A stretch of DNA of 64,000 bases. It comes from Bacilli bacterium (GTDB lineage Bacteria > Bacillota_I > Bacilli_A > RFN20 > CAG-826). Shown piece after piece: positions 31,074 through 61,651 of the stretch. Positions within the stretch are counted from its first letter, which is position 1, and each line of letters starts with the position of its first letter. Under the pieces are notes generated by a model, which searched no databases, was not told the origin of the DNA, and was given only the letters and a program-made list of their open reading frames with translations. Both the position numbers and the translations under genes were made by a program. The stretch lies in assembly GCA_045597865.1 (NCBI GenBank), contig JAZLKX010000025.1, positions 352,001 through 416,000 on the forward strand, in the 5' to 3' direction.

Positions 31074-34000
31074 TTAGTCTTGTTTTTTCTTAGCGGCAAT
31101 TAATGCAGCGCCAGCGATTGCTAAGCCTGTAACAACAGCGCTTGCAGCAATAACTGAACCACCACAGCCTTTCTTTGGTTCTGGTTGTGGTTCGAGTTTT
31201 GGAATAACCAAACTTTCTGCTGTGCATGCCATCTTATTTGCATCAAAGAGTTGACCGCATTCTGAACAGACATAATGTGCTTTCATTCCTTCTTTTTCAG
31301 TTGTAGCTGCAACTTCTGGAATTAATTCGCCAAGTTTATGTCCTGTTGCTGGGATAACTTCAGTCTTTGTTTCACCACATTCACAAGTGAATGTCTTGAC
31401 ACCATTTTCGGTACATGTTGCTGGTTTAGTAACTTCACCTTCACCCCATTCATGTCCTAATGCTGGATCAACAACTGGTGTTCTTGAAAGTTCTTTACCG
31501 CAGATTGAACAGTAGACAACTTCATCATGTGAACCTGCTTCTGTGCATGTTGGATTAACAACGTGTTCTTTAACAGCTGCTGCAGGTGTATGTGCAACAT
31601 CTTCTTTTGCAAGTTTTCCAGCAGCAAGTTTCCAAGATGCATAAGCATCTGCATCTCCAATTAATATGTTGCCTGCTACATCTTCAAAGTATTTTTCGCA
31701 TGTTTCACAGAAGTAAGCGGCTTTGTAGCCATCTTCCTTACATGTTGCATCTTTACCTGCAACTGGCGACATATCGTGTCCTAATGCTGGATCTGTAACT
31801 GTGTTTCTTGAAAGTTCTTTTTGACAAACTGAACAGTAGACAACTTCATCATGTGAACCTGCTTCTGTACATGTTGGATTAACAACGTTTTCAATAACAG
31901 CTGTTGCAGGTGTGTGTGGAACATCTTCTTTTGCAAGTTTTCCATCACCAAGTCTCCAAATTTCAAGAGCTTCGAAGTCACCAATTAAATCTTCACAATT
32001 CTCATCTTCGTAATAAGCCTTACAATTATTACAATAGTAAGCTTCTTTATAACCATCTTCTTTGCATGTTGCTGGTTCACCATCAATGAATTCAGCATCA
32101 TGTCCGATTGGATCAATATCAATGGTTTTTGTATCAGTACCAAGTGTTGCAAATGTTGCTGTGTATGTGCCAACACCTTTTTGAGTACATGTTGGATCAG
32201 TGGTTACTTCATAAGTAACAACACCTTCTTCAGTAACAAATTCTTCACAACCATCATTTGTGCATTCTTTAGTTGCAGTACATTCAAATCCACCGTCAAT
32301 TGGTTGCCAATCATAAACTGTTTCACCAAATACATGGTCTGGTTTACCAGCTTCAGTATTTGTGTAGCTATCCTTTTCAGTTTGAGCGGTTCCAAGTTCA
32401 GTATTATCAAATGTTACTTCAAAATGACCAGTTTCATAACTATGGCAAGTAGCATTTGTGTCTTTGACATAGTTTGCTTCTTTTTCTTCATATAAAGTTT
32501 CGCCACAGCCGTGTTCACAGGTTGCACTAGCTTTTGCAAGTTTGCCATCCCATGTAACTTCAACTGACCATTCGTGTCCAGTTGCTGGAGTATCTCCTTC
32601 AACTGAATTTGCCTCAGTGCGAGCTGTTCCGAGTGCTGTGTTATCAAATGTTACTTCGTAATGTCCTAAGTTTTTAGAAGTACATGTTGCTTCTGAATCT
32701 TGGACAAATGTGCCATCTTTGGTTTCTGTAATTTGGTGAGACCCATCATGGCTACAAGTCATTGTTGCAGTAGCAGTTTTGCCTTCCCAAGTAACAACTG
32801 GATCACCATAATCATGTCCAAGAGCATTGTTTAATGTAACATTTTCGGTTTGTGTTGCGAATTTTGTATTAGTAAATGTGTATGTGTAATGTCCTGTTTC
32901 GCCATCTTCACATGTAGCAGCACTATCTTGTGAGTATGAGCCTGTAGCAGTCTCAGTTGCAAGAACTTCGTCTTTATCAACACTGCAATATAATGTTGCA
33001 GTTATCTTATGATCTGCTGTTGGTTCACTATAAACGATTTCACCATCAGAGCAATCGGTAAATTTCGCATAGATTGATGTATCGGCATTAATTAATGTAT
33101 TTTCAAAATCAAATAAAGTCGCATATTCACCATCAGCATACCAACCACTAAAATGTGAATTTTCTTTAATTGGATCATCAATTGGAGAAACTTTAGTTCC
33201 AACATCTATGCTTACTTGAGTTTCAACACCGTTTGCGATAAATGTAACTGTTTTTTGTTCAACCCAATCAGCAACTAAAACAATGTCTTTAGTAACAGGA
33301 ACTCCGACAAATGTGTATGGATTACCATCCAATTTCCATCCATTAAATCTATATCCGGTTTTTGTCGGAACTACTGGCTCAGTAGCTGCCATATTTATTG
33401 CAACATATTGATCAGCAACAGAAGTGCCACCTTGAGAATCAAATGTTACTTTTGCTGCTTCTGTAAATGTTCCATTAACAAGTTCATTGTTAAAAGCAAT
33501 AAATTTAAGCTCTGGAAGGGTAGCATCCATGAATTGAGTATCTTTATCAATAGTAACAACGCTTCCTTGTTTTGCAAAACCAGGAGCATATAACGCTAAA
33601 AGATTGGTAGAAAAATAACTAATTAAAGAACCTTCAATGCTTGAAAAAGGAACTCCGTTAAGTTTGATGTGATTGCCTATTTCCTTGCTTGCAAGATTAT
33701 CTTTATGATTACCATCTATGTAATTTGAATTTTTACTAGCAAGATTAGATGTAAATCTTAACATTAAAACATTAGGGTCACCATCATATACTCCAGGCCA
33801 AAAATTAATGTAGTTATTATTTATTGCATCGTATGTTATCGGTCTCTTTCCGATTGACCAACCTCCATCATTATTCACAAAGTTACCAACATAATACAAA
33901 GTTGTAGGAGCAATTTTTGATTCAAAAAGAGTGGTATCTTCAGGAATAACAATCTCTAAGTACTTCAAGCCAGTTCTGGTTTCTATATCATCAAATGAAT

Positions 34001-34751
34001 TATAAGGGATGTAAATATAAGGCATATTAGCAAAGGAACCAACTAAAGCACCATCAATGTCAGCAAGTTTTACACCATTCGCTGTAACTTTATCAAAGAA
34101 ACTTGCAGATTTATCAATTAAAGTGTTAGAAACATTGCTTAAATTTCCACCAGAAACTGTAAAAAGAGCAATAGCCCCATTTGCTCCTGATGCCCATCCG
34201 CCATAATCAATGTTGTTCCAGGTTACACCTGAAATTTCAATTGTTTTTACTTTATCAGCAGGGTAATCAACACTTTTAAATACCAATCCTTTATTAGCAT
34301 CAAACACAAATTCCATTGTAGGAATGAGATAGTTTTGGAATTTAAAACCACCTGTAATTTTTAATGTTGATCCTTCAGTAATATTAGCCTGTGGAATATT
34401 AATAGAAAAATAAGTGCTACCGTTGCTATAATGAATTTTTGAACCTGTAATATTTTGTAATTCAACACCATCTAATTTAAAATAGCTACCTAATGTTGAC
34501 ACCAAATTTGTTTTGTCGATCGCATCTCCTAGAGTTTCGTTAAATTGAAGCAAATATGCATCGCTTTCAGGATATGGATTCCAAGCCGAAGCAATGCCTT
34601 TATAAGTTGCGTAAGGAGTTTGTTCTTCATCAACAGCTTTTGTCATCACTACTTCATTGCCTTTTGATAAAGCGACAGATATTGGAACACTAGCACCAAC
34701 TAATCCCAATGAAGTAAGGACTAATAATTTTGAATATACTTTCTTTTTCAT
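31074..34751 (-). CDS. large cell-surface protein: 3 novel beta domains, InlB B-repeats, Cys/His-rich repeats, KKGCGGS C-terminal sorting signal
   Basis: Signal peptide; AGGAGG RBS; VTFDSQGG...PTKTGYRFNGW B-repeat; ATC..G/CxxC repeats; C-terminal KKGCGGS-TM-KKK. Confidence 0.85.
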   Translation of the reverse strand: MKKKVYSKLLVLTSLGLVGASVPISVALSKGNEVVMTKAVDEEQTPYATYKGIASAWNPYPESDAYLLQFNETLGDAIDKTNLVSTLGSYFKLDGVELQNITGSKIHYSNGSTYFSINIPQANITEGSTLKITGGFKFQNYLIPTMEFVFDANKGLVFKSVDYPADKVKTIEISGVTWNNIDYGGWASGANGAIALFTVSGGNLSNVSNTLIDKSASFFDKVTANGVKLADIDGALVGSFANMPYIYIPYNSFDDIETRTGLKYLEIVIPEDTTLFESKIAPTTLYYVGNFVNNDGGWSIGKRPITYDAINNNYINFWPGVYDGDPNVLMLRFTSNLASKNSNYIDGNHKDNLASKEIGNHIKLNGVPFSSIEGSLISYFSTNLLALYAPGFAKQGSVVTIDKDTQFMDATLPELKFIAFNNELVNGTFTEAAKVTFDSQGGTSVADQYVAINMAATEPVVPTKTGYRFNGWKLDGNPYTFVGVPVTKDIVLVADWVEQKTVTFIANGVETQVSIDVGTKVSPIDDPIKENSHFSGWYADGEYATLFDFENTLINADTSIYAKFTDCSDGEIVYSEPTADHKITATLYCSVDKDEVLATETATGSYSQDSAATCEDGETGHYTYTFTNTKFATQTENVTLNNALGHDYGDPVVTWEGKTATATMTCSHDGSHQITETKDGTFVQDSEATCTSKNLGHYEVTFDNTALGTARTEANSVEGDTPATGHEWSVEVTWDGKLAKASATCEHGCGETLYEEKEANYVKDTNATCHSYETGHFEVTFDNTELGTAQTEKDSYTNTEAGKPDHVFGETVYDWQPIDGGFECTATKECTNDGCEEFVTEEGVVTYEVTTDPTCTQKGVGTYTATFATLGTDTKTIDIDPIGHDAEFIDGEPATCKEDGYKEAYYCNNCKAYYEDENCEDLIGDFEALEIWRLGDGKLAKEDVPHTPATAVIENVVNPTCTEAGSHDEVVYCSVCQKELSRNTVTDPALGHDMSPVAGKDATCKEDGYKAAYFCETCEKYFEDVAGNILIGDADAYASWKLAAGKLAKEDVAHTPAAAVKEHVVNPTCTEAGSHDEVVYCSICGKELSRTPVVDPALGHEWGEGEVTKPATCTENGVKTFTCECGETKTEVIPATGHKLGELIPEVAATTEKEGMKAHYVCSECGQLFDANKMACTAESLVIPKLEPQPEPKKGCGGSVIAASAVVTGLAIAGAALIAAKKKQD
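31455..32100 (-). repeat. intragenic tandem duplication, 324-nt (108-aa) unit, about 2 copies
   Basis: Near-identical GAACAGTAGACAACTTCATCATGTGAACCTGCTTCTGT at about 31507 and 31831; the protein repeats ATCKEDGYK...PTCTEAGSHDEVVYCS. Confidence 0.9.
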
Positions 34752-34772
34752 GTATATCCTCCTTTTAAAATT

Positions 34773-34909: not shown

Positions 34910-35057
34910 TTAATATAAATTAATACATAGTATTAAAATATAATTGAGTATCAAAAAAAGACAATTGTAGTTAAAAAAATGCAATCGTAAAATTAGTATT
35001 TTATATCGAAAACTAATTAATTTAATTTAAAAAGGTAAGTTGTATAATATTAGGCAA

Positions 35058-37514: not shown

Positions 37515-37525
37515 AATGATTCCGT

Positions 37526-37611
37526 CCGATTTTTCTAATTGAATTATACATCGTAAAATCGGTTTTTCCAATAAAATATTCAAAGAAAAATCGGTTTTTC
37601 CAATAAAATAT
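37526..37611. repeat. direct-repeat array (2 x 25 nt plus 1 degenerate copy; period 32-33) overlapping the promoter
   Basis: AAAATCGGTTTTTCCAATAAAATAT at 37555 and 37587; CCGATTTTTCTAAT at 37526. Minus-strand TTGGAA-17-TATAAT lies within the array. Confidence 0.85.
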
Positions 37612-37638
37612 CAAACATAAAAAATAAAAAATTTTAAA

Positions 37639-39051: not shown

Positions 39052-39081
39052 TGGTTTTTCCTCGTATATCTATTTTATTAA

Positions 39082-39164
39082 TTATTTAGGGAAATGCAAC
39101 AATTATTTAGGGAAATGACCAATTTATTTAGGGAAAAATTAAACATAAAAATCCCCAAATAAAT
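39082..39164. repeat. direct-repeat array (3 x 13 nt, period 21, plus an inverted degenerate copy) overlapping the promoter
   Basis: TTATTTAGGGAAA at 39082, 39103 and 39124; inverted ATTTATTTGGGGATT at 39150-39164. Minus-strand TTGCAT-16-TAAAAT. Confidence 0.85.
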
Positions 39165-39337
39165 AGTAGAACGGGTAAAAATACAGAAAAATAATGGCTT
39201 TTTTCTTACGATAAGACAAATTTGATTATTCAATTTACACAATAATTTCAACAGGAACCAATATTATTCGAACTTAATCGCTATAAAAAGTTATCATCTC
39301 AAAAAAGGTTTGTTTTTAAATTGATTCTATATTATTT

Positions 39338-40684: not shown

Positions 40685-40697
40685 AGTTAAATCCTCC

Positions 40698-40825: not shown

Positions 40826-42121
40826 TTACAAAATATCAGTCCACTTGCTTTCGCCCCATTCGGCAACAAGTTCAAATGAATCATCATCAATACTCCAAGT
40901 GCCGCTTGAAGGAATAACTTCGCCATTATATTTCCAGCAACCGAAGAAATATTCTTCATGAACTGGTGTTTCTAAAACATATGGTTGATCGAATGTAACT
41001 GAAATAATATTTTTGTTAATAACACCACCATTTGGGTCTAATGTTATTGTGTATGTTTTTGCTACTAAAGTAGCATTTACAGTCATATTCTTTAAAATAT
41101 TTGTAAAATCATCAACATCCCAAGAAACTATATAACCAGTCTTTTCTTTAGGAGTAGGAATATCGGTTAATGTTTGTCCTCTTGAAACTGTTTTTGAAAT
41201 AGTTGTTCCATCCCAATTTATAAAAGTAATCACTGGTTTTTCGGTTTCAACCCACTTAGCAATTAATGTAACATTATCTGCAACATTCCAAATTGATTCG
41301 TCTGTATAGATTACACCATCGTATTCCCAACCAATAAAATCAGCATTATCTTTACTTAATGTCATGTCAAGTCCTATACAAGGACTATCGTATGTTAAGG
41401 AAATTGTTGTTTCATCAATATCAAAACCATCAGCATCATATGTAACAACATATGAATTTGCGGTGCAAACTGCATGGACAGTTATATCTTCATTTAAATT
41501 TGTGAAATCTGTTCTGTCCCAACTAACAGTATAGCCAGTCTTTTTAGATGGCTCTGGAATATCAGTTAATGTTGCACCTTTAAATACGTTTTTAATAACT
41601 GAAGATTCGTCTATATCTATAAATGTAACAGTAACTTTTTCAGCTTCTTCAAATTTAGCAGTTAATGTGACATTGCTTGCAACATTCCAAATTGATTTAT
41701 TTGTGTATATAACATCGTTATATTCCCAACCAATGAATGTTGCATATTCTTTTTCAACAGACATATTAAGATTTGAACATTCAGAATCGTAAGTAACTTC
41801 AGCAGTTGTACCATCAACGCTACATCCTGGCGCACAATAAGTAACTGTATATGTGTTTGCGTTTGCGATAGCGTACACCAACATATCTTGTGAAATGTTT
41901 GTGAAATTAGATCTATTCCAAATAACTGTATAACCAGTTTTTGAATTTGGAGTAGGAATATCCGTTAAATTTTCGCCTTCTTTAACTGTTCTAATAACGT
42001 CATCAAAACCAGTTTGTTTAAATGTTATTGTGTATGTTGCTTTCTCTTTAGAACCACAGGATGCTAAAACAACACCAGAAAACAAAAGTGGTAAAAGAAT
42101 AATTAATTTTCTATTTTTCAT
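40826..42121 (-). CDS. lipoprotein made of InlB B-repeat-like (beta-grasp) domains
   Basis: Start MKNRK (ATGA overlap); lipobox LASC; three 133-aa units (399-nt period; LTDIP.P..KTGY.V.W...F.GW.Y). Confidence 0.85.
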   Translation of the reverse strand: MKNRKLIILLPLLFSGVVLASCGSKEKATYTITFKQTGFDDVIRTVKEGENLTDIPTPNSKTGYTVIWNRSNFTNISQDMLVYAIANANTYTVTYCAPGCSVDGTTAEVTYDSECSNLNMSVEKEYATFIGWEYNDVIYTNKSIWNVASNVTLTAKFEEAEKVTVTFIDIDESSVIKNVFKGATLTDIPEPSKKTGYTVSWDRTDFTNLNEDITVHAVCTANSYVVTYDADGFDIDETTISLTYDSPCIGLDMTLSKDNADFIGWEYDGVIYTDESIWNVADNVTLIAKWVETEKPVITFINWDGTTISKTVSRGQTLTDIPTPKEKTGYIVSWDVDDFTNILKNMTVNATLVAKTYTITLDPNGGVINKNIISVTFDQPYVLETPVHEEYFFGCWKYNGEVIPSSGTWSIDDDSFELVAEWGESKWTDIL

Positions 42122-50557: not shown

Positions 50558-53500
50558 TTATTTTTCCTCCTTTCTTCTAACTAATATCAGCAAAGCTGAC
50601 AAGCATGCAGATATTGTTAAAACTAAAGAAGAAGCTAAAATGCTACTTCCACAACCTTTTTTCTCTTCAGGTTCTTCGTTTTTATATTTAATAACTAATT
50701 CAGCATAAGAAACTTCTTTATAAGTTTCCCCATCTTTAACAAAGTATTTATTACAATCATTACAAATGTAATGTTCTTTCATACCATCTTTATCTTTAGT
50801 TGCTTCGACTGCTCCAACATATGTGTAGCTATGAGCAAGTTTTGCAACACTTATTATCTTTGTTTGTTCATTGAAATATGGATTATCAAACGCAACAGAG
50901 TAAGCTATTTGACCTTCTTGAGTGCAAGATGCTTCACGAACAACAGTTTTTGTTGCAACTTTTGTTTCACTAATAACATCATCACAATTCACACAACGAA
51001 TAGAAGCAACACACTCAAATCCACCATCAATTTCTTTCCATTCATATGATGGACCGACATATTCGTGTCCATAAGCCTGAATCACAATTGTTTCTAACTT
51101 AAAGCTACAGGCTTCATCACCATAATAAACACCTGGTTCATTTGCACAGGTCCAGTATTCAGCGGTTCCATCTGTTTCACATGTTGCAGGAACTCCAGCG
51201 TGATGTGTTAAATCATGAGGAGTTTTTGGAATAGACCAATCATCAATTTCATTTAAACCTTCAGAATCACTAAAGTGTTTATGACAGTTTTCGCAGTAAT
51301 AGCATTCAACATTGCCAACTTCATAACATGTTGGATCTTTTGCATCTAAATGAACAATACTGTGATTTGATTTAGGAAGAACTACATCATCTGGATTAAG
51401 TAATTCTCTTCCTTTTGGGTCTGCAAAATAATAGTCACCAAAAATTGGTGAATAATAATAACCAATATTTCCATCTTCAGTACATGTTGCTTCTTTAGGT
51501 TCAACATAAACGTAAGTAATTGAATATTTAACAATAATTGTCACATCCGATGTTACTTCTAATGAATCGATTTTTTCGCCATCAAGATAAACTTCAAATG
51601 TTGTACCTTCAAATTCAAATATATCAAATGGTAAGAAATTGTTTTTCGAAACTAAGAATCTATCATCATCTCTTCTAATACCTTCATATTTTACAATTAC
51701 AGCATAATGAAGAGGGGCTTGTTTAAATTTAGCCTCAAAATGCATATCACCAGTAACGATTCCGGTTTCAAAATCCCATTTATAGCCTTCATAGTACCAA
51801 CCATCAAAGATGTAATCGTATTCTTCATCGTGATATGTACTTGGATTTGCAGGAGGAGTTAATTTACTGCCAACCGGTACTTCAACTGGATCTGCATCTC
51901 CAAAATAAATTTTTGCCATAGAAACATTACTATGAACGTTGATTGTGATTTCCTTAGTTTGAGTTGGATATCCTTCTAATTCATATGTAATAGTTAAATT
52001 CCATACGCCTGCATTATATTTTCCACCGCTAATTGCACCATCTTCATAGTCAAAAGTGATTTTTGATTCAATATCACCATATAAATTTGTTACTTTAGTA
52101 AGATTAGTAAAATCATAAACTGGATCACCTTCATTAAAGTCATATACTGAAATGCCTCCATAATAAATGGAAGGTTTATAAATTGGGAGATCCTTTTTGT
52201 AATCTAAAACACTATCTCCTTGGTCAACACCCCAGATAGCACATTTTCCAGTGCGGTCATTATTTAATTCATAATTAATAACAACTAGGTGATTAATTGC
52301 AATTATAACTGTTGTTTTTACACCACAAACAACTTTAAATTCAAATAAGTAATCAGTATTTGCTTCAAAAGTATAGTTATTGAAAGTTTGAAGAACAGCA
52401 TAGCTGTTTATTTGATCCAAAAGTGTAATGGATTGCCAACCAAATACAATTTGTGCTGTAAAACCATAAAAGCCATCTAATGTTAAAGTTGTTGGATTTG
52501 CTGGATCTACTGTTCCACTATTAATGTTGAACTCTAATTCAACTCCATCTGCAGGTAATTCTGCAAAGATAGCATGAGGTGTAGCTCCAACTTCATAAGG
52601 GAACTTAACCTGTAAATTTGTATTAAAATCAAATGGATCAGTTACTTTAAATGTTTCAAATGCACCACTTTTCCAAGTTGTTCCAGCAAGATAAAGATTT
52701 GTTTCTGGAAGCATGGTATCCATAAATATGGTATTTTCTTCAATATGAAGATTTGGAACTAAATGATCGTTTGTTGGAAGTAAAAGTTCAGCAGGATAAA
52801 CTACGAAAAAATGGTTAGCGCCATGATCGTAACCAACTTTTGTCTTTGGGAACTTATCATGGATTTCTGCAATTGTTAATCCATTAATTGTTAGTTTTGA
52901 ACCAATATCATATGCCAAAGTAGCTTGGTTATCAGAATTAGGAGTTTTATTGTCTGCCAAATAATCGATACCTTCTGTTCCATAATCAAGAATTGTATGG
53001 TAATAGCCAATTTCATTTGGAAGGTTGTTATTATAAGGATTTACTCCAGTGAATGGGAAATGATTATAATCACCAGCCCCTTTTTTAACGGACCATCCAC
53101 CACCTTTTCCTAATTTTCCTTTAAATTCAAAAGTGATTTCAGGAAGATTTACTGAATTAAAATGTAATCCTTTTTCAATTGTAATTGTTGGATATTGATA
53201 CTTGTCTTTATTAGAAAGAGATGTATCAGGTACGTAGAAAAATAATCCATATTTTGGGAAAAGATAACATTTAGAATCTGCCACATCAACTATGTTGACA
53301 CCATTAACTTTTATTAAATGGTCAACAGGATCACCATTGCCGATAAGACCTCTACCAGTATTAACCGTACTGCCAATTACAGTTTCTTCATATGATTTTC
53401 CAACTTCATGGAAGAATGAAAGTAAACAATATCCGTTAAGTGGAGCAGCATCATCTCCTAGTTCACCAGCCCACGCTTGAGACATTGTTGGGGAATAATC

Positions 53501-54100
53501 TCTATTATCCCACTCTATTTTATCAAATTCGCTTTCAACTCTAATAATTGGTTCAGGATCTTTTTGCCAGTTTCCAAAAGTTCCTAATGGTCCTCTATAT
53601 TCAAAGCTATTTCCTTCTACTTGATAGGTTCCATCTATTGACATGCCTTCAAGAACATCAATAGTGAGATAGTCATATTCTTCACCTAAGGTGATACTTG
53701 ATCTTGGAACATAAACATAAAATCCGTTTTGTGGATAGCCACACACAAAAACATCGGTCACTTCCGAGCAATTAATGCCATTAATTAAGATGTGATCTGT
53801 AACATTACAACCAGCGACGCCTGCAGTAATAAGGTTGACATCACTATAGGCTTTACTTGCTATATTCGAAGAATATAGAACCAAAATACAAAAACCTTGA
53901 GTAGGAACGCCACTTTCATTAAATGGACCAGGACCTAATCTAGCATAATCAACGTTATTCCACTCAACTTTTGCACCGCCAATTAAGTCAGTTGCCTGAG
54001 TTTCAAGTGGTTCACTTTTCTTATTGTTTGTTAAAACAAAAGAAGCTGAGAATGTCATTAATAATGACAATGCAATAGTAAGAATGTTTCTTTTTTTCAT
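50558..54100 (-). CDS. cell-surface protein: 3 novel domains, LamG-like, Ig-like, B-repeats, Cys/His-rich repeats, KKGCGSS C-terminal signal
   Basis: Signal peptide; WNNVDY and WDNRDY domains; ATCTEDG repeats; KKGCGSS-TM-RRK. Confidence 0.85.
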   Translation of the reverse strand: MKKRNILTIALSLLMTFSASFVLTNNKKSEPLETQATDLIGGAKVEWNNVDYARLGPGPFNESGVPTQGFCILVLYSSNIASKAYSDVNLITAGVAGCNVTDHILINGINCSEVTDVFVCGYPQNGFYVYVPRSSITLGEEYDYLTIDVLEGMSIDGTYQVEGNSFEYRGPLGTFGNWQKDPEPIIRVESEFDKIEWDNRDYSPTMSQAWAGELGDDAAPLNGYCLLSFFHEVGKSYEETVIGSTVNTGRGLIGNGDPVDHLIKVNGVNIVDVADSKCYLFPKYGLFFYVPDTSLSNKDKYQYPTITIEKGLHFNSVNLPEITFEFKGKLGKGGGWSVKKGAGDYNHFPFTGVNPYNNNLPNEIGYYHTILDYGTEGIDYLADNKTPNSDNQATLAYDIGSKLTINGLTIAEIHDKFPKTKVGYDHGANHFFVVYPAELLLPTNDHLVPNLHIEENTIFMDTMLPETNLYLAGTTWKSGAFETFKVTDPFDFNTNLQVKFPYEVGATPHAIFAELPADGVELEFNINSGTVDPANPTTLTLDGFYGFTAQIVFGWQSITLLDQINSYAVLQTFNNYTFEANTDYLFEFKVVCGVKTTVIIAINHLVVINYELNNDRTGKCAIWGVDQGDSVLDYKKDLPIYKPSIYYGGISVYDFNEGDPVYDFTNLTKVTNLYGDIESKITFDYEDGAISGGKYNAGVWNLTITYELEGYPTQTKEITINVHSNVSMAKIYFGDADPVEVPVGSKLTPPANPSTYHDEEYDYIFDGWYYEGYKWDFETGIVTGDMHFEAKFKQAPLHYAVIVKYEGIRRDDDRFLVSKNNFLPFDIFEFEGTTFEVYLDGEKIDSLEVTSDVTIIVKYSITYVYVEPKEATCTEDGNIGYYYSPIFGDYYFADPKGRELLNPDDVVLPKSNHSIVHLDAKDPTCYEVGNVECYYCENCHKHFSDSEGLNEIDDWSIPKTPHDLTHHAGVPATCETDGTAEYWTCANEPGVYYGDEACSFKLETIVIQAYGHEYVGPSYEWKEIDGGFECVASIRCVNCDDVISETKVATKTVVREASCTQEGQIAYSVAFDNPYFNEQTKIISVAKLAHSYTYVGAVEATKDKDGMKEHYICNDCNKYFVKDGETYKEVSYAELVIKYKNEEPEEKKGCGSSILASSLVLTISACLSALLILVRRKEEK

Positions 54101-54114
54101 ATGACCATTCTCCT

Positions 54115-55740
54115 TTATTTCTTCGTGTAAATAACATTGACGTAAGCATTTCTATTAACTTCGAGTCTAGTTATTTCTTTTCCTGTATCAGATAAAACGA
54201 GCATGTTGTAACCATCAACTTCATACGAAGTAAATTTCACAACATCACCGCTTTTAACATTTAAAACAACATCTTCTTTGTTTTGACCAATAAAGTGAAT
54301 TGTTACAAAGTATGATGAAACATAATCAGCATAAATATAAGTATTATCATTAATTGCATTAGCAAAGCTAAAGCTTCCGTCTTTTGTAAACCATCCAAGT
54401 CCGCTTGAAAGTTCATAAGGAGCAGGAATTATAGCGCCTTTATCAACAAACATTGAAGTATCTTTATGGCCAAGTGTTTTAACATTAACAAAGGCTTTTC
54501 CTTCATAGTTTAAGCTTGCTTTAAATGGTTTAACTTCATGTTCAACGTCAATTTTGCCAGACCAAATGTCTCTAATTTTTTGAATCTCTTCATCAGTTAA
54601 ACCAACATTTGATTCATCTTTTCTTAGGAAATTCTCTGCACCTGACATTAAAGAACTTCCAAATGATTCAATTAAATTGAGCGTTTCATTGACAGGAGCA
54701 AGATTTAAATCAGATAAACCTTTATCATAAGCTCCTGTAACAGACCACATAGAAGTAAAGTAATCATGAATAATATAATCTCTAGAAGCACCTGCTAAGG
54801 CTTGAAGAAGCATTGCTAGTGTTCCTGTTCTATCTCTACCGACAGCACAGTGGAATATAACTGGGTAATTGCTTGGTTCACAAAATACCTTAACTGCTTC
54901 AATCATGCTTTCTCTATTAATTTCGCTAAAACCAGGAGAATATTGAATAATTGTTCTTAAGTAATAATTAGGAAGTTTAGCAGGATTTTTAATTCCTTCA
55001 CCATTTTTTCTTAAGTCTAAATCAGTTTGAATTCCTAAATCATTTAATGCTGATACACCAATTTCGGTAACATCATCTAAACGACCACTTCTGTAGATTA
55101 AACCTTGTTTCATTTCACCAAGTGCGCCTGAAAAGCCACCAACATCGCGTGTATTTGAGACAGTTGGCACGTTAACAGTACGTTTAAAATCGTTTGTTTT
55201 AAAGTCAAAAATTGAAGATTTTACTTCACCATCGTTTGTATGTGCGGTCACTTGCCAGAAATAATGAGTATTAGAGTAAGGATTTTTTATTTCAAAGAAT
55301 TGTTCAGTTAATCCTTTTTCCTCATAAACTGCTTGTGTTAAATCAGCATTTAAGGAAACCGTCACATCATAACTTGTTGCTTTTACATTTGATTTCCATG
55401 TTAGAACGTTATTAGTTGGTTTAAAATCATCCCATTTATCGTATAACGCACGCACATAATCGTGATTATTAGCGTTATTTGCAAATGAAGAAATTTCATT
55501 ATTCATTTCGTATAGATTTTTAAGATTATCAATATCGTTTACGTTAGATTCCCAATATTTTTGAATATCAAGTTGAGCCATACTAATAACAGCACCATCT
55601 TTATGAGATAATGCTTGAATTTTTTCAACGTCAAGAACAATTGCTCCATCAGCAATGCATGTTTCAGCAGCGCGATTAAACCCTAGCGCTGTAAGTAAAA
55701 CTGAAGAAAAGACAACTGGAATTAAAATTTTCTTATTCAT
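54115..55740 (-). CDS. secreted PtpB/LipA-type cysteine phosphatase
   Basis: Start MNKKIL after GGAGG; NTRDVGG, IYRSG, DLR, HCAVGRDRTG. Paralog of the N-terminal half of 47677..50556. Confidence 0.87.
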   Translation of the reverse strand: MNKKILIPVVFSSVLLTALGFNRAAETCIADGAIVLDVEKIQALSHKDGAVISMAQLDIQKYWESNVNDIDNLKNLYEMNNEISSFANNANNHDYVRALYDKWDDFKPTNNVLTWKSNVKATSYDVTVSLNADLTQAVYEEKGLTEQFFEIKNPYSNTHYFWQVTAHTNDGEVKSSIFDFKTNDFKRTVNVPTVSNTRDVGGFSGALGEMKQGLIYRSGRLDDVTEIGVSALNDLGIQTDLDLRKNGEGIKNPAKLPNYYLRTIIQYSPGFSEINRESMIEAVKVFCEPSNYPVIFHCAVGRDRTGTLAMLLQALAGASRDYIIHDYFTSMWSVTGAYDKGLSDLNLAPVNETLNLIESFGSSLMSGAENFLRKDESNVGLTDEEIQKIRDIWSGKIDVEHEVKPFKASLNYEGKAFVNVKTLGHKDTSMFVDKGAIIPAPYELSSGLGWFTKDGSFSFANAINDNTYIYADYVSSYFVTIHFIGQNKEDVVLNVKSGDVVKFTSYEVDGYNMLVLSDTGKEITRLEVNRNAYVNVIYTKK

Positions 55741-58480
55741 GTTCTTTTCCTCCTTTCTTCTTTGAAGAAACAAGCAAGATAACTGCTACTCCCGAAAGTA
55801 AACTAACTATTAAGGATGCTGCAACAACACTTCCTCCACAACCCTTCTTTTCAGGATCAACTGGAGCGGTTGATTTATAAACAAGTTTTGCATTCATATT
55901 TCCAGTTACGGTAATAGAATTGACTTTTTCGTCATTAACATAGGCTTCAAGTGTATAACCATTTTTGTTAAATATTTCTATACTAAGGATTGAACCAGAA
56001 GCAAGATAAATGCTAAATGAACTAGAATCTTCTAATCCCTCTACTGTAAAAGAAACGCAATAAGTATTAATCTCATATTCAAATTTACTAACAAGGTTCA
56101 TATCTTGAACGATGTAGTCATTTTCAAAATCCCATGGTTTTTCATTGAAATACCATCCGATAAAATTATATTTTCCAACTTCGTCCTTTTTTACTGGATC
56201 AGCAATTGGAGCAATATGATCACCAATTTTGTAAATTGATGCATTTTTTTCATCAAATGTAACTGTTACTTCAAGTTTATTTGCAGCAATAACTGTAACG
56301 GTTAATTGAGTTTCATTACCTGACTTATCTTTAGATAAAATAACAACAGCCCATGTTCCTTTGTTAATTTTATTATCACTTAGAGAGCCTTCTGGCCATT
56401 TATATTCAATTAAATTAGAAACATCGCCATCTTTTAAGTCAAAAGCTGTGCATTTATTTGAAAAATCAATTACTTCACTACCAGCAAGTACGCCATAAAT
56501 AGCTTTACCACTATAGTTAAGTACTGGTTTTTTGATATCAGCTCCATAAGAAGCATTCTTTAAGGAAACGGTTCCATCTAATAAAGAAATTGAAAACTTA
56601 TTCTCGAGTTTAGAAATATCTTGTAAAGAAACGTCGTTAATGTGTATATAAACAATATCATCTATTGCTATCGCAATTGATAATTTATCATTATCTATTT
56701 TTGTATAAAACAAAATTGAAAACCATTCATCATAAATAAATGTAGGTAATTCAATTTCTTGTAATGTTACATTCATTTGGGTTGAATCAACTAAGCTTAA
56801 TATATTTCTTCTAAAGCTAACTTTAATTCCGTTTTGTGATTCATTTCCAAATGCAATTAAATCAAATGAGCTATCTTCATTTAAAAGTTTATAATCAAAA
56901 TATAAGTCAAAGTTACTAATTGAAGTATTATTGGTGCCACTAAGTTTTTTGTTGTTTTCATCAAGTGTGGCATTTTTTAGACCAAATACATCTTCAAATG
57001 AAACAGCATTGTCATACTCTTCATCTTCTGGTGTTTCAGGTCTTGTTTTAACCCATTCCCCATTGAATAGGTATAAGTCTGTTTCACCTAACATCGAATC
57101 GTAGAAGATTGTATCATTATCAATGTGAAGATTACACACTTTGTAACCAGGACTTGGTTTTAAAACTGAATTTGGCAAAACTATATAAATATAGCAATAT
57201 CCATGGGCATATGAAACGATTGCATCACCAATTTCAGCTAAAGAAACACCATTTACAAAAATGGATAAACCACAATATGAATATTTGCTGACAAGATTTG
57301 CATCTGCTGGTTCTTTATCATTTTTTAGATAATCAACACCATATTGACCAAATTGAAGAATTGTATGATTATGGGTGCTATTTAATGGAACATTGTTCCA
57401 ACCACCTGCAACATCAGTAAATTCAACATGGTTGTATTCAGATGGGTTTCTTAAGTAAGTCCAACGATCTGTTTCTCCTACCTCACCTCTAAATTCAAAA
57501 GAAATAGCAGGCAAAATTACATTATTAAAGTGAATTCCTTCTTCTAAAGTAATAACTGGGAATTTATATTCATCAGTAAAAGTTAATGAAGAATAAGGCA
57601 AATAGAAATAAAGACCATATTGTGGGAAAAGATAACATTTTGAATCAACAACATCAATAATATTGATGCCATTAACTTTTATCTTTGTATCAATTATTCC
57701 AAAACCAATAACGCCACGGCCTGAAACAGTAGCATCTCCAATAACGGTTTCTTCATATGTTTTTCCTTTTTCATTGAAGAAAACAAGCAAGCAATAGCCA
57801 TTAATTGGCGAACCATTAGCATTTAATTCACCGCTCCATTGTTGACCCATTGTGCTTGAATAGTCTTTGTTATTCCATTCGATTTTAGCAACATCAGCTT
57901 CTTTAAATTCGACTGGCTCAGGATTAATTTCCCAATTTCCAAAAGATTTAAGTAAACCTCTATATTCAAATCTAGTTCCAACAGTCATAGCACTTCCGTC
58001 AATTGACATTCCTTCTAAAACTTCAACTGTTAAATATGGATAATCATCACTAGTGGAAAAACTTGTAGCTGGAACGTAAAGGAAAAAACCATTTGTAGGA
58101 TAAGCATAGACAATAACATCATCTACATCCTTACATTCAACACCATTGATTAAAATATGATCACCAACATTGCAGCCTTCAATGGTTGCGTCTAATAAAT
58201 TTTCAGTAATGTATTCAGAAAGTGAAATATCAGATTTATAAAGTGGCAATAAACAATATCCTTCTTGAGGAATACCGTTTCCATCTCTATTTGCCACCCA
58301 TTGTTTGCCAAAATTTCCGGAATAGTCAACATTGTTCCAAGCAACTTGATCAATATCAACCAATTCTGTATCGTCAGCCTTTACATCTAAAGATTTATTT
58401 TTATTAAAATTTGCAACAAGACTTGCACAAACGCTTAAAAACATTGAGAGAATGAGAATTGAAATTCTTTTTTTGGCCAT
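55733..58480 (-). CDS. cell-surface protein paralogous to 50558..54100, with KKGCGGS C-terminal signal
   Basis: Signal peptide; WNNVDY, WNNKDY, WNNVP domains; DGDVS Ig-like; B-repeat; KKGCGGS-TM-KKK. Confidence 0.85.
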   Translation of the reverse strand: MAKKRISILILSMFLSVCASLVANFNKNKSLDVKADDTELVDIDQVAWNNVDYSGNFGKQWVANRDGNGIPQEGYCLLPLYKSDISLSEYITENLLDATIEGCNVGDHILINGVECKDVDDVIVYAYPTNGFFLYVPATSFSTSDDYPYLTVEVLEGMSIDGSAMTVGTRFEYRGLLKSFGNWEINPEPVEFKEADVAKIEWNNKDYSSTMGQQWSGELNANGSPINGYCLLVFFNEKGKTYEETVIGDATVSGRGVIGFGIIDTKIKVNGINIIDVVDSKCYLFPQYGLYFYLPYSSLTFTDEYKFPVITLEEGIHFNNVILPAISFEFRGEVGETDRWTYLRNPSEYNHVEFTDVAGGWNNVPLNSTHNHTILQFGQYGVDYLKNDKEPADANLVSKYSYCGLSIFVNGVSLAEIGDAIVSYAHGYCYIYIVLPNSVLKPSPGYKVCNLHIDNDTIFYDSMLGETDLYLFNGEWVKTRPETPEDEEYDNAVSFEDVFGLKNATLDENNKKLSGTNNTSISNFDLYFDYKLLNEDSSFDLIAFGNESQNGIKVSFRRNILSLVDSTQMNVTLQEIELPTFIYDEWFSILFYTKIDNDKLSIAIAIDDIVYIHINDVSLQDISKLENKFSISLLDGTVSLKNASYGADIKKPVLNYSGKAIYGVLAGSEVIDFSNKCTAFDLKDGDVSNLIEYKWPEGSLSDNKINKGTWAVVILSKDKSGNETQLTVTVIAANKLEVTVTFDEKNASIYKIGDHIAPIADPVKKDEVGKYNFIGWYFNEKPWDFENDYIVQDMNLVSKFEYEINTYCVSFTVEGLEDSSSFSIYLASGSILSIEIFNKNGYTLEAYVNDEKVNSITVTGNMNAKLVYKSTAPVDPEKKGCGGSVVAASLIVSLLSGVAVILLVSSKKKGGKEHE

Positions 58481-58586
58481 ACGAATACCTCAACTTCTTT
58501 AAATATTATAAACTAATTATAGTTTACCACTTTTATGTCCTTAAAATATAACAATTATTGTTATGAATTGTCATTTTTTTGACTTA

Positions 58587-58634: not shown

Positions 58635-58672
58635 AGTTAATTAATATAGGTACAAGTATTTAATTAAATTAT

Positions 58673-61651
58673 TTAAGATTTTAAGCTTTGCAATAACGCA
58701 TCAATAGTTGATGTATCAGTTTTTCCTGTAAATTGTGTGTAAAGTGTTTTACCCCACTTTTTCAAAGTGAAATCTTTTGCAATAAAACCAAAATTTGGTT
58801 CGCCAGCATCATTCACATCAGTAATTGTGTATGTGTGGCCTTGGTAAGTGGCTTTGCAAGTTTTCTTTGTATAACCAGTTGTTTCAAAATCTAATGAATC
58901 ATAGTCAATTGTTGCTGTAGCAGTAAACTTACCACCACTTGAACCTGTACAAACGATGTTGTAACAACGAATTGCGCTCATATCAGTTATAAACTGATTC
59001 CAAGCATCAAAATCAGTATCTGAAATATTTGTTTGAATTGAAACATTGTATTTGTTTCCAAATGAATACATTCTAAACCACTGTAAAGAATAGAAATAAT
59101 CTAAATCTCTTGCTGCTGGAATAAGTGCATTAATTGCATTTGGAAGAACATCTGATGTTCCAAAATTAATTTTATCGTTAGAAGAATATAAGCCAGTTTC
59201 ATTAATTCCAGCATAATCTGTAAAACCAAATTCAGTTGCAATCATTGGTATAAATTCATCATTGTGATCAACACAAATTTGATGGAATTCATTCATGGAT
59301 GCAACCCAATTAGTAACATAGTTACTATTAAACACCTTTTTAGATCCACTTGTATCATATAAATAGTTCCCGTTTTGAGCAGTTACTGAATCATAAAATA
59401 CGTATGGATGTAAGTTTAAAACTTGGAAATATTCACTTGGTGATTTATTTTGCGATTCGATGTAATCGTAACACAAATCAAGGAATACGCCACCATCTCT
59501 AACTTGAGCCATAGTTCCTTCTGGAACAAAAGAAGGTAATGGATCAAAATCACCAACCACTGCAATAGCAGGAGTCATAACACGGACCTTGCCATTTGTA
59601 GATTCCTTAGCTGCATCTGTAATCATTTCTGAATAATCCATTACATAGCCAACTACTTGGTCTCTATAGTATTTCTCCATTTCCTTGCCAGGATATGCTG
59701 GTGAAATACCTGGAATATAATTTTCTAAATATTCTGGACTCTTTGTGCATGGTCCAAGGTTAATCTCGTTTAACGGTTCAACAAAATCAACATCAAAAGT
59801 ATTAAAAATCTTTTTATAGAATTCTTTGTTTCCGTTAAGCCATCTCTGATATTCTTCAGAATTACATTTTGGGAAAATGTTACTATGTGTAGCAGCTTTT
59901 CCTAATCTAATTGAATCAAACCAGTTTGTTATTTGAGTCTTGTTTGATGCATCTCCTGGAATATAGAAGAACTTATCAGTGTACGAATAAACGAAACCAT
60001 TAACCATAAGGTTAATTTCTTCAATTCCAGCAGCGCGATAAGCGCTTATTGTATCTTGAAGAGCTTTGATAGAGTCTGCTTTAAACTTAACGTTATATGT
60101 TGAGCAATTCTCGTAATCATTCAAATAATTACCATCTAATCTTAATGGATCAACAAGGCCAATTGATGGCCATGCTGAATCAAGCAAGAATGAAGTTGTA
60201 ACCCAAATACGTGCTGTTTTAGCATTAAATTCAGACTGAATTGTAGCATTATTTACATAAGTGTTTTTGGTTGTGGAATTAAAATCACTATAAACATCGT
60301 AGTTTGGTTCAGAGAATCCAAGATTCATTTTTACTTCACTACTAGAAAATTTAACTGTGTCTCTAAAAGCAGAAACATATACGGATTCGCCTTTAGTTAA
60401 TTGTCTATTGTAAGTCTTGCCATTAACAATAAATTGATTAACTTTATTATTAGCAATTACTTTGTAATAGCCGTTTCCATCATAGTTTAAAGTGCAAATA
60501 TCTTTATCAAATGATTCGTTAACTAGTTCATAGTTTTTATCAGTGCTATTTAATGTAACAACAAAGAGCTCATCAAAAACATCTTCATAATCATGTGGAT
60601 CAACATGTAATTTTTCTAATTCATTATGTAATGAGCAGAAATAATCGCCTGTTTGACCATAATAGTTTTTATTATTTATCTTAAGATAACTAACAGGAAT
60701 TAAATCTTGTCTATAATTTTCTTTATCAAGTTTGGCGTCATATTCAAAAGAATAAGTCGTGATTTCTGGTGATTCTACTTCAACTTGGAAAATATGCTCA
60801 TTTAATTCATAGTTTTTATAAGCGTTTAAGCTTTCAGTAGTATTCTCAATATAACTGGAAATACTTGAATATATTGAATCTTCATAAGCATTCTTGTTTA
60901 CTAAGTAAACACCTATATCAAATGGTGTATGAGATAAATCTACTTTTGGATCAACTGAAAACTTTGTTGTAAATCTTAACTGATAACCATCATTATTCAC
61001 AAATTTTGTTTCTTTTAATGTTTCAATTGAAAAATCTCTATCAAGGCACCACTTTCCATTGATTAATGCCAAATCAAATTTGTTAACTTTAGCATCACTA
61101 GGCATTGTTAAATTATTAAAAGAAAGCATTATAAAATCTTGTGCAAGTTGCTTTGCAAAATATTTAATTGGCAATTTTAAAACAAAAGATTTATTGCTTT
61201 CTTTTAATAACTCAACTTTTGGATCATTAAGAGCCAATTCATAGATGGTTTTATTATTAAAAATAATATTATTTCCAATACGTGTTTCTAATGCATAATT
61301 TTTAGATGTAGAATCAGAATCATTAAAAATATCTTTTTCAAAATGTAATACAGTTATTCTTCGAGAGGAAACATTATCTTCTTGCTCTTTTTTATTATTA
61401 AAAACTTCATCAATGTTTGAAAATTCCGATATTACTTCTACTTTTTTTGAAGAATACTTAATTTGGTTAAATGTATTGTGAATAATCTCGCTGGAAGTTA
61501 ATTTTTCTTTGTCAAATTTAGCATGCCCATGGGTTAATATCTTATTTTCAACCGAATTAAACTTATTATTAATTCTATTTTTAGACACAAAAGAACTAGA
61601 AAATGAAGATAAGCTCAATAATAAAATAAGAGGCAATTTAAGCACAAACAT
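58673..61651 (-). CDS. secreted modular clan GH-A glycoside hydrolase (third paralog)
   Basis: Signal peptide; GGAGG RBS; AKTARIWV, EPLNEIN, NLHPY, ATEFGF, WFR, GEPNFG. Confidence 0.72.
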   Translation of the reverse strand: MFVLKLPLILLLSLSSFSSSFVSKNRINNKFNSVENKILTHGHAKFDKEKLTSSEIIHNTFNQIKYSSKKVEVISEFSNIDEVFNNKKEQEDNVSSRRITVLHFEKDIFNDSDSTSKNYALETRIGNNIIFNNKTIYELALNDPKVELLKESNKSFVLKLPIKYFAKQLAQDFIMLSFNNLTMPSDAKVNKFDLALINGKWCLDRDFSIETLKETKFVNNDGYQLRFTTKFSVDPKVDLSHTPFDIGVYLVNKNAYEDSIYSSISSYIENTTESLNAYKNYELNEHIFQVEVESPEITTYSFEYDAKLDKENYRQDLIPVSYLKINNKNYYGQTGDYFCSLHNELEKLHVDPHDYEDVFDELFVVTLNSTDKNYELVNESFDKDICTLNYDGNGYYKVIANNKVNQFIVNGKTYNRQLTKGESVYVSAFRDTVKFSSSEVKMNLGFSEPNYDVYSDFNSTTKNTYVNNATIQSEFNAKTARIWVTTSFLLDSAWPSIGLVDPLRLDGNYLNDYENCSTYNVKFKADSIKALQDTISAYRAAGIEEINLMVNGFVYSYTDKFFYIPGDASNKTQITNWFDSIRLGKAATHSNIFPKCNSEEYQRWLNGNKEFYKKIFNTFDVDFVEPLNEINLGPCTKSPEYLENYIPGISPAYPGKEMEKYYRDQVVGYVMDYSEMITDAAKESTNGKVRVMTPAIAVVGDFDPLPSFVPEGTMAQVRDGGVFLDLCYDYIESQNKSPSEYFQVLNLHPYVFYDSVTAQNGNYLYDTSGSKKVFNSNYVTNWVASMNEFHQICVDHNDEFIPMIATEFGFTDYAGINETGLYSSNDKINFGTSDVLPNAINALIPAARDLDYFYSLQWFRMYSFGNKYNVSIQTNISDTDFDAWNQFITDMSAIRCYNIVCTGSSGGKFTATATIDYDSLDFETTGYTKKTCKATYQGHTYTITDVNDAGEPNFGFIAKDFTLKKWGKTLYTQFTGKTDTSTIDALLQSLKS

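What the first reader, a model, noticed from the sequence alone, without database searches (positions are those of the whole stretch)
33480..61360. Unrecognised ~120-aa extracellular domain repeated about 17 times across five proteins
Seen: a shared pattern of W[ND]NxDY...(L/I)LxF..NL...N(L/F)...G.HI.(L/I)NGV.(L/I)S.(I/L).GA.V.Y....(L/F)(F/Y).Y.P....L.I..G..F....LP...F....W. By eye there are 7 copies in the 1845-aa protein, ordered A-B-B-B-B-A-B (about 47535-44905; A1 and A2 are similar at DNA level). There are 3 copies each in 31074..34751, 50558..54100 and 55733..58480, and one degenerate copy in the GH at about 61360-61045. The domains always sit N-terminally, away from the anchor. I do not recognise the family. 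Inference: a beta-sandwich that is either a new carbohydrate/polymer-binding module (conserved W/Y) or a cohesin-like assembly module, since it occurs on both enzymes and non-catalytic anchored proteins.
Basis: partly seen in the sequence, partly recalled or inferred. Interest (0 to 1): 0.72.

Follow-up and report, generated by a model that had tools for sequence, protein, structure and literature searches.

The report
New Ig-like repeat on gut-bacterial surface proteins
A previously unnamed, roughly 125-residue immunoglobulin-like domain is repeated 17 times at the outer ends of five secreted or membrane-anchored proteins of a wall-less herbivore-gut bacterium, and most likely serves to hold enzymes and binding proteins onto a polymer they feed on.

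Summary

The family is rare: 148 representatives among 1.84 billion proteins. I found it in no other genome of 200 from the same order or 398 from the phylum sample. Named relatives are Clostridia and Bacilli MAGs, two of them labelled as from ruminant foreguts.

Copies sit directly after a signal peptide, at the free end of the protein. They are fused to metallophosphoesterase, SGNH esterase, tyrosine-phosphatase-like and glycosidase domains, or make up nearly the whole of some C-terminally anchored proteins.

My best reading (about 0.45) is a multivalent polymer- or glycan-binding adhesion module. A passive stalk is less likely. A cohesin-like role is unsupported, since the genome has no dockerin or cohesin. 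This is a new domain family of a known general kind.

The parts
42118..47655 (-). P0001, 1845 aa: signal peptide, 7 repeat copies (A-B-B-B-B-A-B), an unassigned middle region, and two calcineurin-like metallophosphoesterase domains. It has no C-terminal anchor.
   Evidence: ORF; translation; Metallophos E 1.3e-17, 2 stretches; copies
47167..47556 (-). P0001 copy A1 (A-type; begins C-x-G-I-A-N-D-E-N-N-N)
   Evidence: DNA similarity to A2
46783..47187 (-). P0001 copy B1
46378..46812 (-). P0001 copy B2
   Evidence: part of the three-domain model
46000..46404 (-). P0001 copy B3 (the copy modelled alone)
   Evidence: AF2 pLDDT 86.5, pTM 0.82
45628..46029 (-). P0001 copy B4
45253..45645 (-). P0001 copy A2 (A-type)
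44872..45273 (-). P0001 copy B5
31074..34751 (-). P0002, 1225 aa: signal peptide, 3 copies, Listeria-Bacteroides repeats, a Cys-rich region, and a C-terminal KKGCGGS + transmembrane helix + KKK anchor
34254..34634 (-). P0002 copy 1
33882..34265 (-). P0002 copy 2
33441..33863 (-). P0002 copy 3
50558..54100 (-). P0003, 1180 aa: signal peptide, 3 copies, an unassigned middle region, a Cys-rich region, and a C-terminal KKGCGSS + transmembrane anchor
53531..54007 (-). P0003 copy 1 (with insertions)
53066..53545 (-). P0003 copy 2 (with insertions)
52637..53083 (-). P0003 copy 3
55733..58480 (-). P0004, 915 aa: signal peptide, 3 copies, an unassigned middle region, and a C-terminal KKGCGGS + transmembrane anchor
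57896..58384 (-). P0004 copy 1
57434..57919 (-). P0004 copy 2
57017..57451 (-). P0004 copy 3
58673..61651 (-). P0005, 992 aa: signal peptide, one degenerate copy, and a C-terminal domain that resembles clan GH-A glycosidases. That resemblance is a language-model lead only; there is no Pfam or PDB sequence hit.
61043..61426 (-). P0005 degenerate copy (residues 76-203)
   Evidence: enriched HMM 21.8 bits, E 5.1e-5 genome-wide; hhalign P 5.2e-4 over 115 columns; not found by window-only profiles

Best explanation
The repeat is a new sequence family of Ig-like beta-sandwich domains, about 125 aa long. Its signature is V-x-F-x-x-I-x-W-N-N ... L-L-x-[FY] ... G-x-x-I-x-L-N-G-x-x-L-x-x-I-x-G-A-x-[IV]-x-Y-H ... 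P ... L-x-I-x-x-G-T-x-F ... L-P ... W.

The domains form short-linked tandem arrays with a fixed geometry at the free, mature N-terminus of exported proteins. I propose that the array is an adhesion or targeting module. It would bind a polymeric substrate, most likely a glycan or glycopolymer, multivalently. That would keep unanchored enzymes on the substrate: the phosphodiesterase-type P0001, the glycosidase-like P0005, and SGNH esterases and phosphatases in relatives. On the C-terminally membrane-anchored, non-catalytic proteins (P0002-P0004) it would tether the wall-less cell to the same substrate.

Shown: the repeat exists, it has an Ig-like fold, it belongs to no known family, and its position, fusion partners and rarity are as described.

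Inferred: signal-peptide cleavage, rigidity of the array, and any binding or ligand.
For: 1. Position. Copies start right after the signal peptide in all five window proteins and in 115 of 156 family members. Most relatives have canonical A-x-A cleavage sites immediately before the first copy. The genome encodes signal peptidase I and II. The array therefore ends in a free N-terminus. P0001 and P0005 and their relatives have no C-terminal anchor, so there the array cannot be a spacer between an anchor and a payload.

2. Array-only proteins. In the anchored relatives P0028 (10 copies, 88% of 1590 aa), P0038 (10 copies, 85%) and P0071 (8 copies, 77%) the ectodomain is almost nothing but the array. 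The array therefore has a function of its own.

3. Fusion partners. Among 83 relatives scanned with Pfam, 7 carry Metallophos, 3 Lipase_GDSL_2, 1 Y_phosphatase3 and 15 Flg_new. Arrays of up to 12 copies precede a tail like that of P0005. This is the same pattern as binding modules shared between enzymes and surface binding proteins.

4. Context. The window holds an alpha-L-rhamnosidase-like gene, rhamnose catabolism genes (RhaA, FGGY kinase, class II aldolase), GDSL esterases, a polysaccharide deacetylase, a trehalase-like hydrolase, a SASA esterase, a sugar ABC transporter and an AraC regulator. This is a polysaccharide-utilisation-type locus.

5. Cell envelope. The genome lacks a transpeptidase, Mur ligases and sortase (genome 96.9% complete). 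Surface retention must therefore rely on membrane anchors or on binding.

6. Conservation. A conserved Asn/Asp/Tyr-rich loop follows strand 1 (N17 at 91%, N18 at 69%). A-type copies are more conserved among orthologues than B-type copies (41-43% against 28-32% invariant; the catalytic domains are 46-50%).

7. Models. The three-domain model has pLDDT 90.6 and pTM 0.85, which suggests a defined inter-domain arrangement suited to multivalent display.
Against: - No ligand has been tested, and no known carbohydrate-binding family matches by sequence.
- Most conserved positions are hydrophobic core or Gly/Pro/Asn turn residues.
- Copy number varies from 2 to 8 among orthologues with the same catalytic domains, and reaches 12 in the family. 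This is classic for stalks as well as for avidity-based binders.
- P0003 and P0004 have a further unassigned middle region that could be the real binder.
- P0001's own signal peptide lacks a clear A-x-A site. It might stay membrane-embedded, and the array would then be a stalk.
Confidence: 0.45

Rival explanations
1. Passive rigid extender (stalk). The Ig-like array only adds length and stiffness, projecting catalytic or binding domains away from the membrane, like the extender repeats of RTX adhesins or the Big, Rib and G5-E repeats of Gram-positive surface proteins.
For: - The fold is Ig-like and the neighbours are structural tandem-Ig proteins.
- The tandem model has short linkers and a high pTM of 0.85.
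- Copy number varies from 1 to 12.
- Conserved positions are mainly core and turn residues.
- P0001's signal peptide has no obvious A-x-A site. If it is uncleaved, the array lies between the anchor and the enzyme.
Against: - In the C-terminally anchored proteins the array is at the distal free end with nothing beyond it.
- Relatives exist whose ectodomain is almost only the array.
- Most enzyme relatives have canonical cleavage sites directly before copy 1 and no other anchor.
- Signal peptidase I is present.
- P0002 and P0003 already have a separate Cys-rich, membrane-proximal region that looks like the stalk.
Confidence: 0.25
2. Adhesin or coat for a non-glycan target. The arrays bind proteins or cells (host mucosa, other microbes, feed-particle proteins), or they form a protective protein coat on the wall-less cell.
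For: - Array-only anchored proteins with 8-10 copies exist.
- The organism lacks peptidoglycan genes.
- Ig-like tandem arrays are a common adhesin architecture (general knowledge, not tested here).
Against: - The domain is repeatedly fused to esterase, phosphoesterase, phosphatase and glycosidase-like domains.
- It sits in a sugar-utilisation locus.
- It is absent from 200 other genomes of the same small-genome order, including 3 of the same genus. The one genome tested for cell-wall genes is this one, and it lacks them. A general coat would be expected to be more widespread in the lineage.
Confidence: 0.15
3. Cohesin-like or homotypic assembly module. Unanchored enzymes carrying the domain dock onto anchored proteins carrying the same domain, building a cell-surface enzyme complex without cohesin or dockerin.
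For: - The same module sits on unanchored enzymes (P0001, P0005) and on anchored non-catalytic proteins (P0002-P0004) encoded side by side.
- Retaining large secreted enzymes is a real problem for a wall-less, sortase-less cell.
- Sequence-divergent cohesins that only structure reveals have been reported in ruminococci (bioRxiv 10.64898/2026.02.05.704116; I saw the listing and four passages).
Against: - There is no dockerin (PF00404) or cohesin (PF00963) in the genome.
- No cohesin appears among the top 50 structural neighbours of either model.
- Arrays of up to 12 copies on the enzymes themselves are unlike dockerin-type single adaptors.
Confidence: 0.08

Closest known systems
Bacterial Ig-like tandem repeat domains of surface proteins (Pfam Big_1/2/3/13 and similar; extender repeats of RTX adhesins). 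The names are recalled; no membership was detected here.
   Same: An Ig-like beta-sandwich of about 100-130 aa in head-to-tail arrays with short linkers, on exported and anchored proteins, with variable copy number.
   Different: - No Big family matches any of the 16 copies, even at E up to 10.
- The arrays lie at the free N-terminal end rather than between an anchor and a head domain.
- The signature is distinct (W-N-N loop, L-N-G, C-terminal Trp at 97%).
- Small helices are inserted.
Non-catalytic carbohydrate-binding modules and Ig-like X modules of Gram-positive glycan degraders, and the tandem beta-sandwich surface glycan-binding proteins SusE/SusF of Bacteroides. These are recalled as functional analogues.
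   Same: The module is shared between enzymes and non-catalytic, cell-anchored proteins of one sugar-utilisation locus. It sits far from the anchor and is multivalent.
   Different: - No CBM family matches by sequence.
- Ligand binding is untested.
- Arrays of 7-12 copies are unusually long for CBMs.
Cohesin modules of cellulosomes and amylosomes
   Same: A beta-sandwich module on anchored, non-catalytic scaffold-like proteins encoded next to enzymes.
   Different: - There is no dockerin or cohesin in the genome.
- The same module, not a complementary small adaptor, sits on the enzymes.
- No cohesin appears among the top structural neighbours.
C-terminal beta-sandwich of SASA/SGNH carbohydrate esterases (rabbit sialic acid esterase 8f9r_B residues 406-511; Xanthomonas XAC1771 7kmm_B residues 539-638)

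Membership tests
Cohesin (PF00963) / cohesin-dockerin system | Sequence match to the cohesin profile | tested here: not met
   Pfam scan of all 16 copies at E up to 10 gave no cohesin hit. A whole-genome six-frame search with PF00963 gave 0 matches.
Cohesin (PF00963) / cohesin-dockerin system | A dockerin-bearing partner encoded in the same genome | tested here: not met
   PF00404 gave 0 matches in the genome, which is 96.9% complete. The control search rang in 2 of 14 named genomes.
Cohesin (PF00963) / cohesin-dockerin system | Nine-stranded jelly-roll cohesin fold | tested here: inconclusive
Carbohydrate-binding module (any CAZy CBM family) | Sequence membership in a described CBM family | tested here: not met
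   No Pfam CBM family matched any of the 16 copies. PDB profile searches gave a best E of 0.56 and 1.4. CAZy/dbCAN profiles were not available.
Carbohydrate-binding module (any CAZy CBM family) | Demonstrated binding to a carbohydrate | not testable with these tools
   This needs recombinant domains and glycan arrays, affinity gels or ITC.
Bacterial Ig-like domain families (Pfam Big_*) | Sequence match to a Big profile | tested here: not met
   0 of 16 copies match. Two distant relatives (P0071, P0078) show sub-threshold-stretch Big_13 hits outside their repeat copies.
Bacterial Ig-like domain families (Pfam Big_*) | Ig-like beta-sandwich fold in tandem arrays | tested here: met
Listeria-Bacteroides repeat (Flg_new, PF09479) | Sequence match over the repeat copies | tested here: not met
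   The Flg_new hits in P0002 lie at residues 434-494, downstream of the three copies. None of the 16 copies matches.

The most novel reading that the evidence does not exclude
The arrays are a cohesin- and dockerin-independent assembly system. Secreted enzymes (phosphodiesterase, glycosidase, esterases) would be held on a wall-less, sortase-less cell by Ig-array-to-Ig-array contacts with the three C-terminally anchored proteins. This would form a new kind of surface enzyme complex. It may be aimed at phosphodiester-linked, acetylated, rhamnose-containing glycopolymers such as the cell-wall polymers of other bacteria.
Probability: 0.08. Interest if true: 0.8.

Novelty: new variant of a known kind. 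Interest (0 to 1): 0.45.

Why it matters
The domain defines a clean, unannotated family suitable for a new Pfam entry. It has 513 or more copies in 160 or more proteins, and a confident fold prediction. It marks a set of very large exported proteins in herbivore-gut Bacillota, and 57 of 83 scanned relatives have no Pfam annotation at all.

If it binds a glycan, it would be a new CBM family. It would also be a handle for finding the substrate of an unusual enzyme set that combines a metallophosphoesterase, tyrosine-phosphatase-like enzymes, SGNH and SASA esterases and a divergent glycosidase.

It also bears on how peptidoglycan-less gut bacteria keep enzymes and substrates at their surface. If it is only a stalk, it is a routine addition to the list of bacterial Ig-like repeats.

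Tried and rejected
- Pfam on whole proteins and on each of the 16 copies: only chance-level hits to DHDPS, Imm65 and PucR, one copy each, at E 0.07-0.12.
- NCBIfam: nothing for the repeat.
- PDB sequence and profile searches: nothing.
- ESM Atlas on copy B3: best score 0.84, unnamed clusters, recognition value low, so uninformative.
- The search for related loci with alignment A1 failed because it has no conserved stretch. With the B-copy alignment A2 it found 17 pattern matches, none confirmed. Loci were only returned with the alignment of whole P0001 orthologues, A3, and 69 of those 76 loci share only the phosphoesterase domain.
- Complex prediction, P0004 residues 36-490 against P0001 residues 37-292, with alignments: verdict 'no answer', score 0.00 against a mark of 0.32.
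- P0005 and the P0001 catalytic region against PDB sequences: no useful relative, so the substrates remain unknown. P0005 as a 'GH' rests only on an Atlas feature match (0.95 to Asl1-like/Glyco_hydro_cc/DUF5722 clusters) and on motifs read by eye.
- Literature: three full-text searches found no description of this domain. They were 'Firmicu-CTERM', 'Listeria-Bacteroides repeat' with 'carbohydrate-binding' and 'rumen', and 'RF39' with 'cell wall', 'surface proteins' and 'polysaccharide utilization'. An unnamed domain cannot really be searched by words, so this is weak evidence that it is absent from print.
- I could not read model coordinates. Solvent exposure of the conserved Trp, Asn and Tyr residues and the end-to-end length of the array were therefore not measured.
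Full report
**1. Is the repeat there?**

The region holds a run of minus-strand genes. I translated six of them.

A profile built only from the five W-N-N-type copies of the 1845-aa protein P0001 was searched against all 153 six-frame ORFs of at least 60 aa in the window. It found seven stretches in P0001. It also hit P0002 at E 4.1e-35, P0003 at 1.1e-13 and P0004 at 2e-13, while the best unrelated ORF scored E 1.4.

Three rounds of iteration gave 16 full-length copies at i-E 1e-28 to 1e-46, with the next ORF at 0.036. Coordinates are and the alignment (A1, 20-54% identity to the first copy). The order in P0001 is A-B-B-B-B-A-B. The two A copies are also similar as DNA: 241 nt at 71% and 61 nt at 82%.

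The same 16 places, and no others, are found in the whole 1.74-Mb genome.

**2. The 17th copy**

Window-only profiles miss P0005. With A1, hhalign gives only 38 columns, at P 0.007 and probability 5.5%.

I then built a profile from 513 copies in 160 proteins returned by the database searches. It hits P0005 residues 76-203 over profile positions 9-124 at 21.8 bits. Against all 5815 six-frame ORFs of the genome this is E 5.1e-5, and the next hit is 0.76.

hhalign with a 55-row alignment (A6) aligns 115 columns in register, at P 5.2e-4 and probability 31%: FNN under WNN, ITVLHF under LLxF, IGNNIIFNNKTIYEL under IGxxIxLNGVxLSxI, and GKW under the terminal Trp.

Many relatives place long arrays of this domain in front of a C-terminal tail like that of P0005. 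I accept the 17th copy as real but degenerate.

**3. What is the domain?**

- No copy matches Pfam at E up to 10, beyond three single chance hits at E 0.07-0.12.
- NCBIfam has nothing for the repeat.
- PDB profile searches give a best E of 0.56 with A1 and 1.4 with A6.
- AlphaFold2 on copy B3 with the 16-row alignment gives pLDDT 86.5 and pTM 0.82. The model has about nine strands and two short helices.
- Foldseek against the PDB finds nothing at E 1e-3 or better.

The conclusion is an Ig-like beta-sandwich that forms arrays with a defined inter-domain geometry. That geometry is inferred from pTM, because I could not inspect coordinates. There is no detectable relative of known function.

Over the 513 copies the most conserved positions are W120 (97%), G60 (94%), N17 (91%), then W16, N18, P84, G99 and a regular pattern of hydrophobic residues.

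**4. Where else is it?**

A profile search of 1.84 billion representative proteins finds only 148 at E 1e-3 or better, of which 47 are at 1e-30 or better.

A word-indexed search with the P0001 array finds 35 proteins. One is 94% identical and the rest are 25-64% identical. Almost all are unnamed metagenome proteins. The few names given are 'hypothetical protein' or 'metallophosphoesterase [Clostridia bacterium]'.

Sampling genomes by lineage gave these results:
- In 200 other genomes of the same order, including 3 of the same genus, I found no copy.
- In 398 scored genomes of the phylum sample I found none either; 2 genomes were not scored.
- Among species-representative genomes, 76 loci share the P0001 phosphoesterase domain, but only 7 carry the repeat. 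Those seven are a Clostridiales MAG, three Candidatus Scatosoma MAGs, two Clostridia MAGs whose titles name water-buffalo rumen and goat reticulum, and one Bacilli MAG.
- P0005-like proteins occur in 1 of 60 same-family genomes, at 28% identity. The neighbouring rhamnose isomerase occurs in 16 of 60, at up to 88% identity.

The domain-bearing genes are thus an accessory, probably laterally exchanged set within herbivore-gut Bacillota. That last point is an inference.

**5. Architecture**

I examined 180 proteins with at least one copy. This set includes the window's five, and the database sets overlap and contain fragments.
- Copy number runs from 1 to 12.
- 156 proteins have a Met start and a hydrophobic N-terminus. 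In 115 of these the first copy begins within 120 residues.
- 75 have a hydrophobic C-terminal segment, and 42 also have a G-C-[GS]-[GSA]-type motif before it.
- Most signal peptides end in canonical A-x-A sites just before copy 1.
- Pfam partners among 83 relatives are Metallophos (7), Lipase_GDSL_2 (3), Y_phosphatase3 (1), Flg_new (15) and Big_13 fragments (2). The other 57 have no family at all.
- Some anchored relatives are almost pure array: P0028 has 10 copies covering 88% of its length, and P0038 has 10 copies covering 85%.

**6. The host cell**

The genome is 96.9% complete. It has no transpeptidase, Mur ligase or sortase. It does have signal peptidases I and II and Lgt. Exported proteins can therefore stay on the cell only through membrane anchors or by binding something.

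**7. Mechanism**

The array always ends in a free N-terminus. On P0001, P0005 and their relatives there is no anchor at either end once the signal peptide is cleaved. On P0002-P0004 the array is the part farthest from the C-terminal helix, and a separate Cys-rich region lies next to the membrane in P0002 and P0003. A passive spacer needs something at both ends, and here one end is free. Array-only proteins also exist.

This is why I favour a binding role. The locus is of the sugar-utilisation type: a rhamnosidase-like gene, rhamnose catabolism, esterases, a deacetylase, an ABC transporter and AraC. The fusion partners are hydrolases of ester, phosphoester and glycosidic bonds. A glycan or glycopolymer is therefore the most likely ligand.

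A-type copies are somewhat more conserved among four seven-copy orthologues than B-type copies: 41-43% against 28-32% invariant, with the catalytic domains at 46-50%. Eight-copy orthologues read A-B-B-A-B-B-A-B (consensus). The A copies may thus be the specific binders and the B copies mainly spacers. This is a hypothesis.

None of the binding is shown.

**8. Rivals**
- Stalk (0.25). It fits the fold and the variable copy number, but not the free-end position. It would revive if the signal sequences are uncleaved, and P0001's own lacks a clear A-x-A site.
- Non-glycan adhesin or coat (0.15).
- Cohesin-like assembly (0.08). The genome has no dockerin or cohesin and the structural neighbours include no cohesin. 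It is not excluded, because divergent cohesins can escape sequence searches (bioRxiv 10.64898/2026.02.05.704116; I saw the listing and four passages only).

The one complex prediction I ran gave no verdict. It is reported only under Tried and rejected.

**9. Verdict**

This is a genuine, rare and so far unannotated domain family with a common fold: a new variant of the known class of Ig-like surface repeats. Its value is as a candidate new binding-module family and as a marker of an uncharacterised exported enzyme set. Interest is 0.45.

Noticed in passing
window 31077-31175, 50561-50662, 55736-55849 (minus strand; C-termini of P0002, P0003, P0004): All three anchored proteins end in the same tail: KKGCG[GS]S, then about 20 hydrophobic residues, then a K/R cluster. 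In this genome only these three proteins have it, plus one doubtful case on contig C49. A similar tail with a Cys occurs in at least 42 of 180 family members. It looks like a C-terminal sorting or lipidation signal with an invariant Cys, in an organism without sortase. The resemblance to MYXO-CTERM or GlyGly-CTERM type signals is recalled, not tested.
   Followed up: partly
window 31200-33050 (P0002 residues about 567-1196) and 50650-51480 (P0003 residues about 873-1166): The membrane-proximal regions are rich in Cys: 31 Cys in P0002 between residues 567 and 1196. They contain recurring C-K/T-E-D/N-G ... C-x-x-C motifs. Pfam gives only a sub-threshold zf-BED hit. This is probably a zinc- or disulfide-stabilised stalk of repeated small modules.
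   Followed up: partly
window 47677-50556 (P0006) and 54115-55773: There are two exported tyrosine-phosphatase-family (Y_phosphatase3) proteins. One is fused to a SASA carbohydrate/sialate O-acetylesterase domain, and its N-terminus may contain a lipobox. Together with the double metallophosphoesterase P0001, this suggests that the locus attacks a phosphorylated and acetylated polymer.
   Followed up: no
window 36207-40699: Two AAA_14/DUF4143 ATPase genes and a Schlafen AlbA_2/HATPase_c_4 gene lie between P0002 and P0001, with a beta-lactamase-family gene on the opposite strand at 35040-36203. They interrupt the surface-protein cluster and look like mobile or defence-type insertions.
   Followed up: no
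window 18166-23849 and 24824-26488: Three large ORFs (582, 419 and 898 aa) next to the sugar ABC transporter have no Pfam or NCBIfam family. The 554-aa ORF resembles a solute-binding protein only weakly (NgcE-like, E 5.4e-5).
   Followed up: no
window 58673-60360 (P0005 residues about 430-992): The catalytic part of the putative glycosidase has no Pfam, NCBIfam or PDB sequence hit. Only a language-model feature match links it to glycosidases (0.95 to Asl1-like / Glyco_hydro_cc / DUF5722 clusters). It may be a divergent clan GH-A family worth separate study.
   Followed up: partly
whole genome G000: The bin is 1.74 Mb with 5.4% contamination, while same-genus genomes are 1.1-1.2 Mb. Earlier notes of this scan place jumbo-phage contigs in the same bin. 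The window's contig (C25, 433 kb) carries lspA, and another contig (C57) carries signal peptidase I.
   Followed up: no
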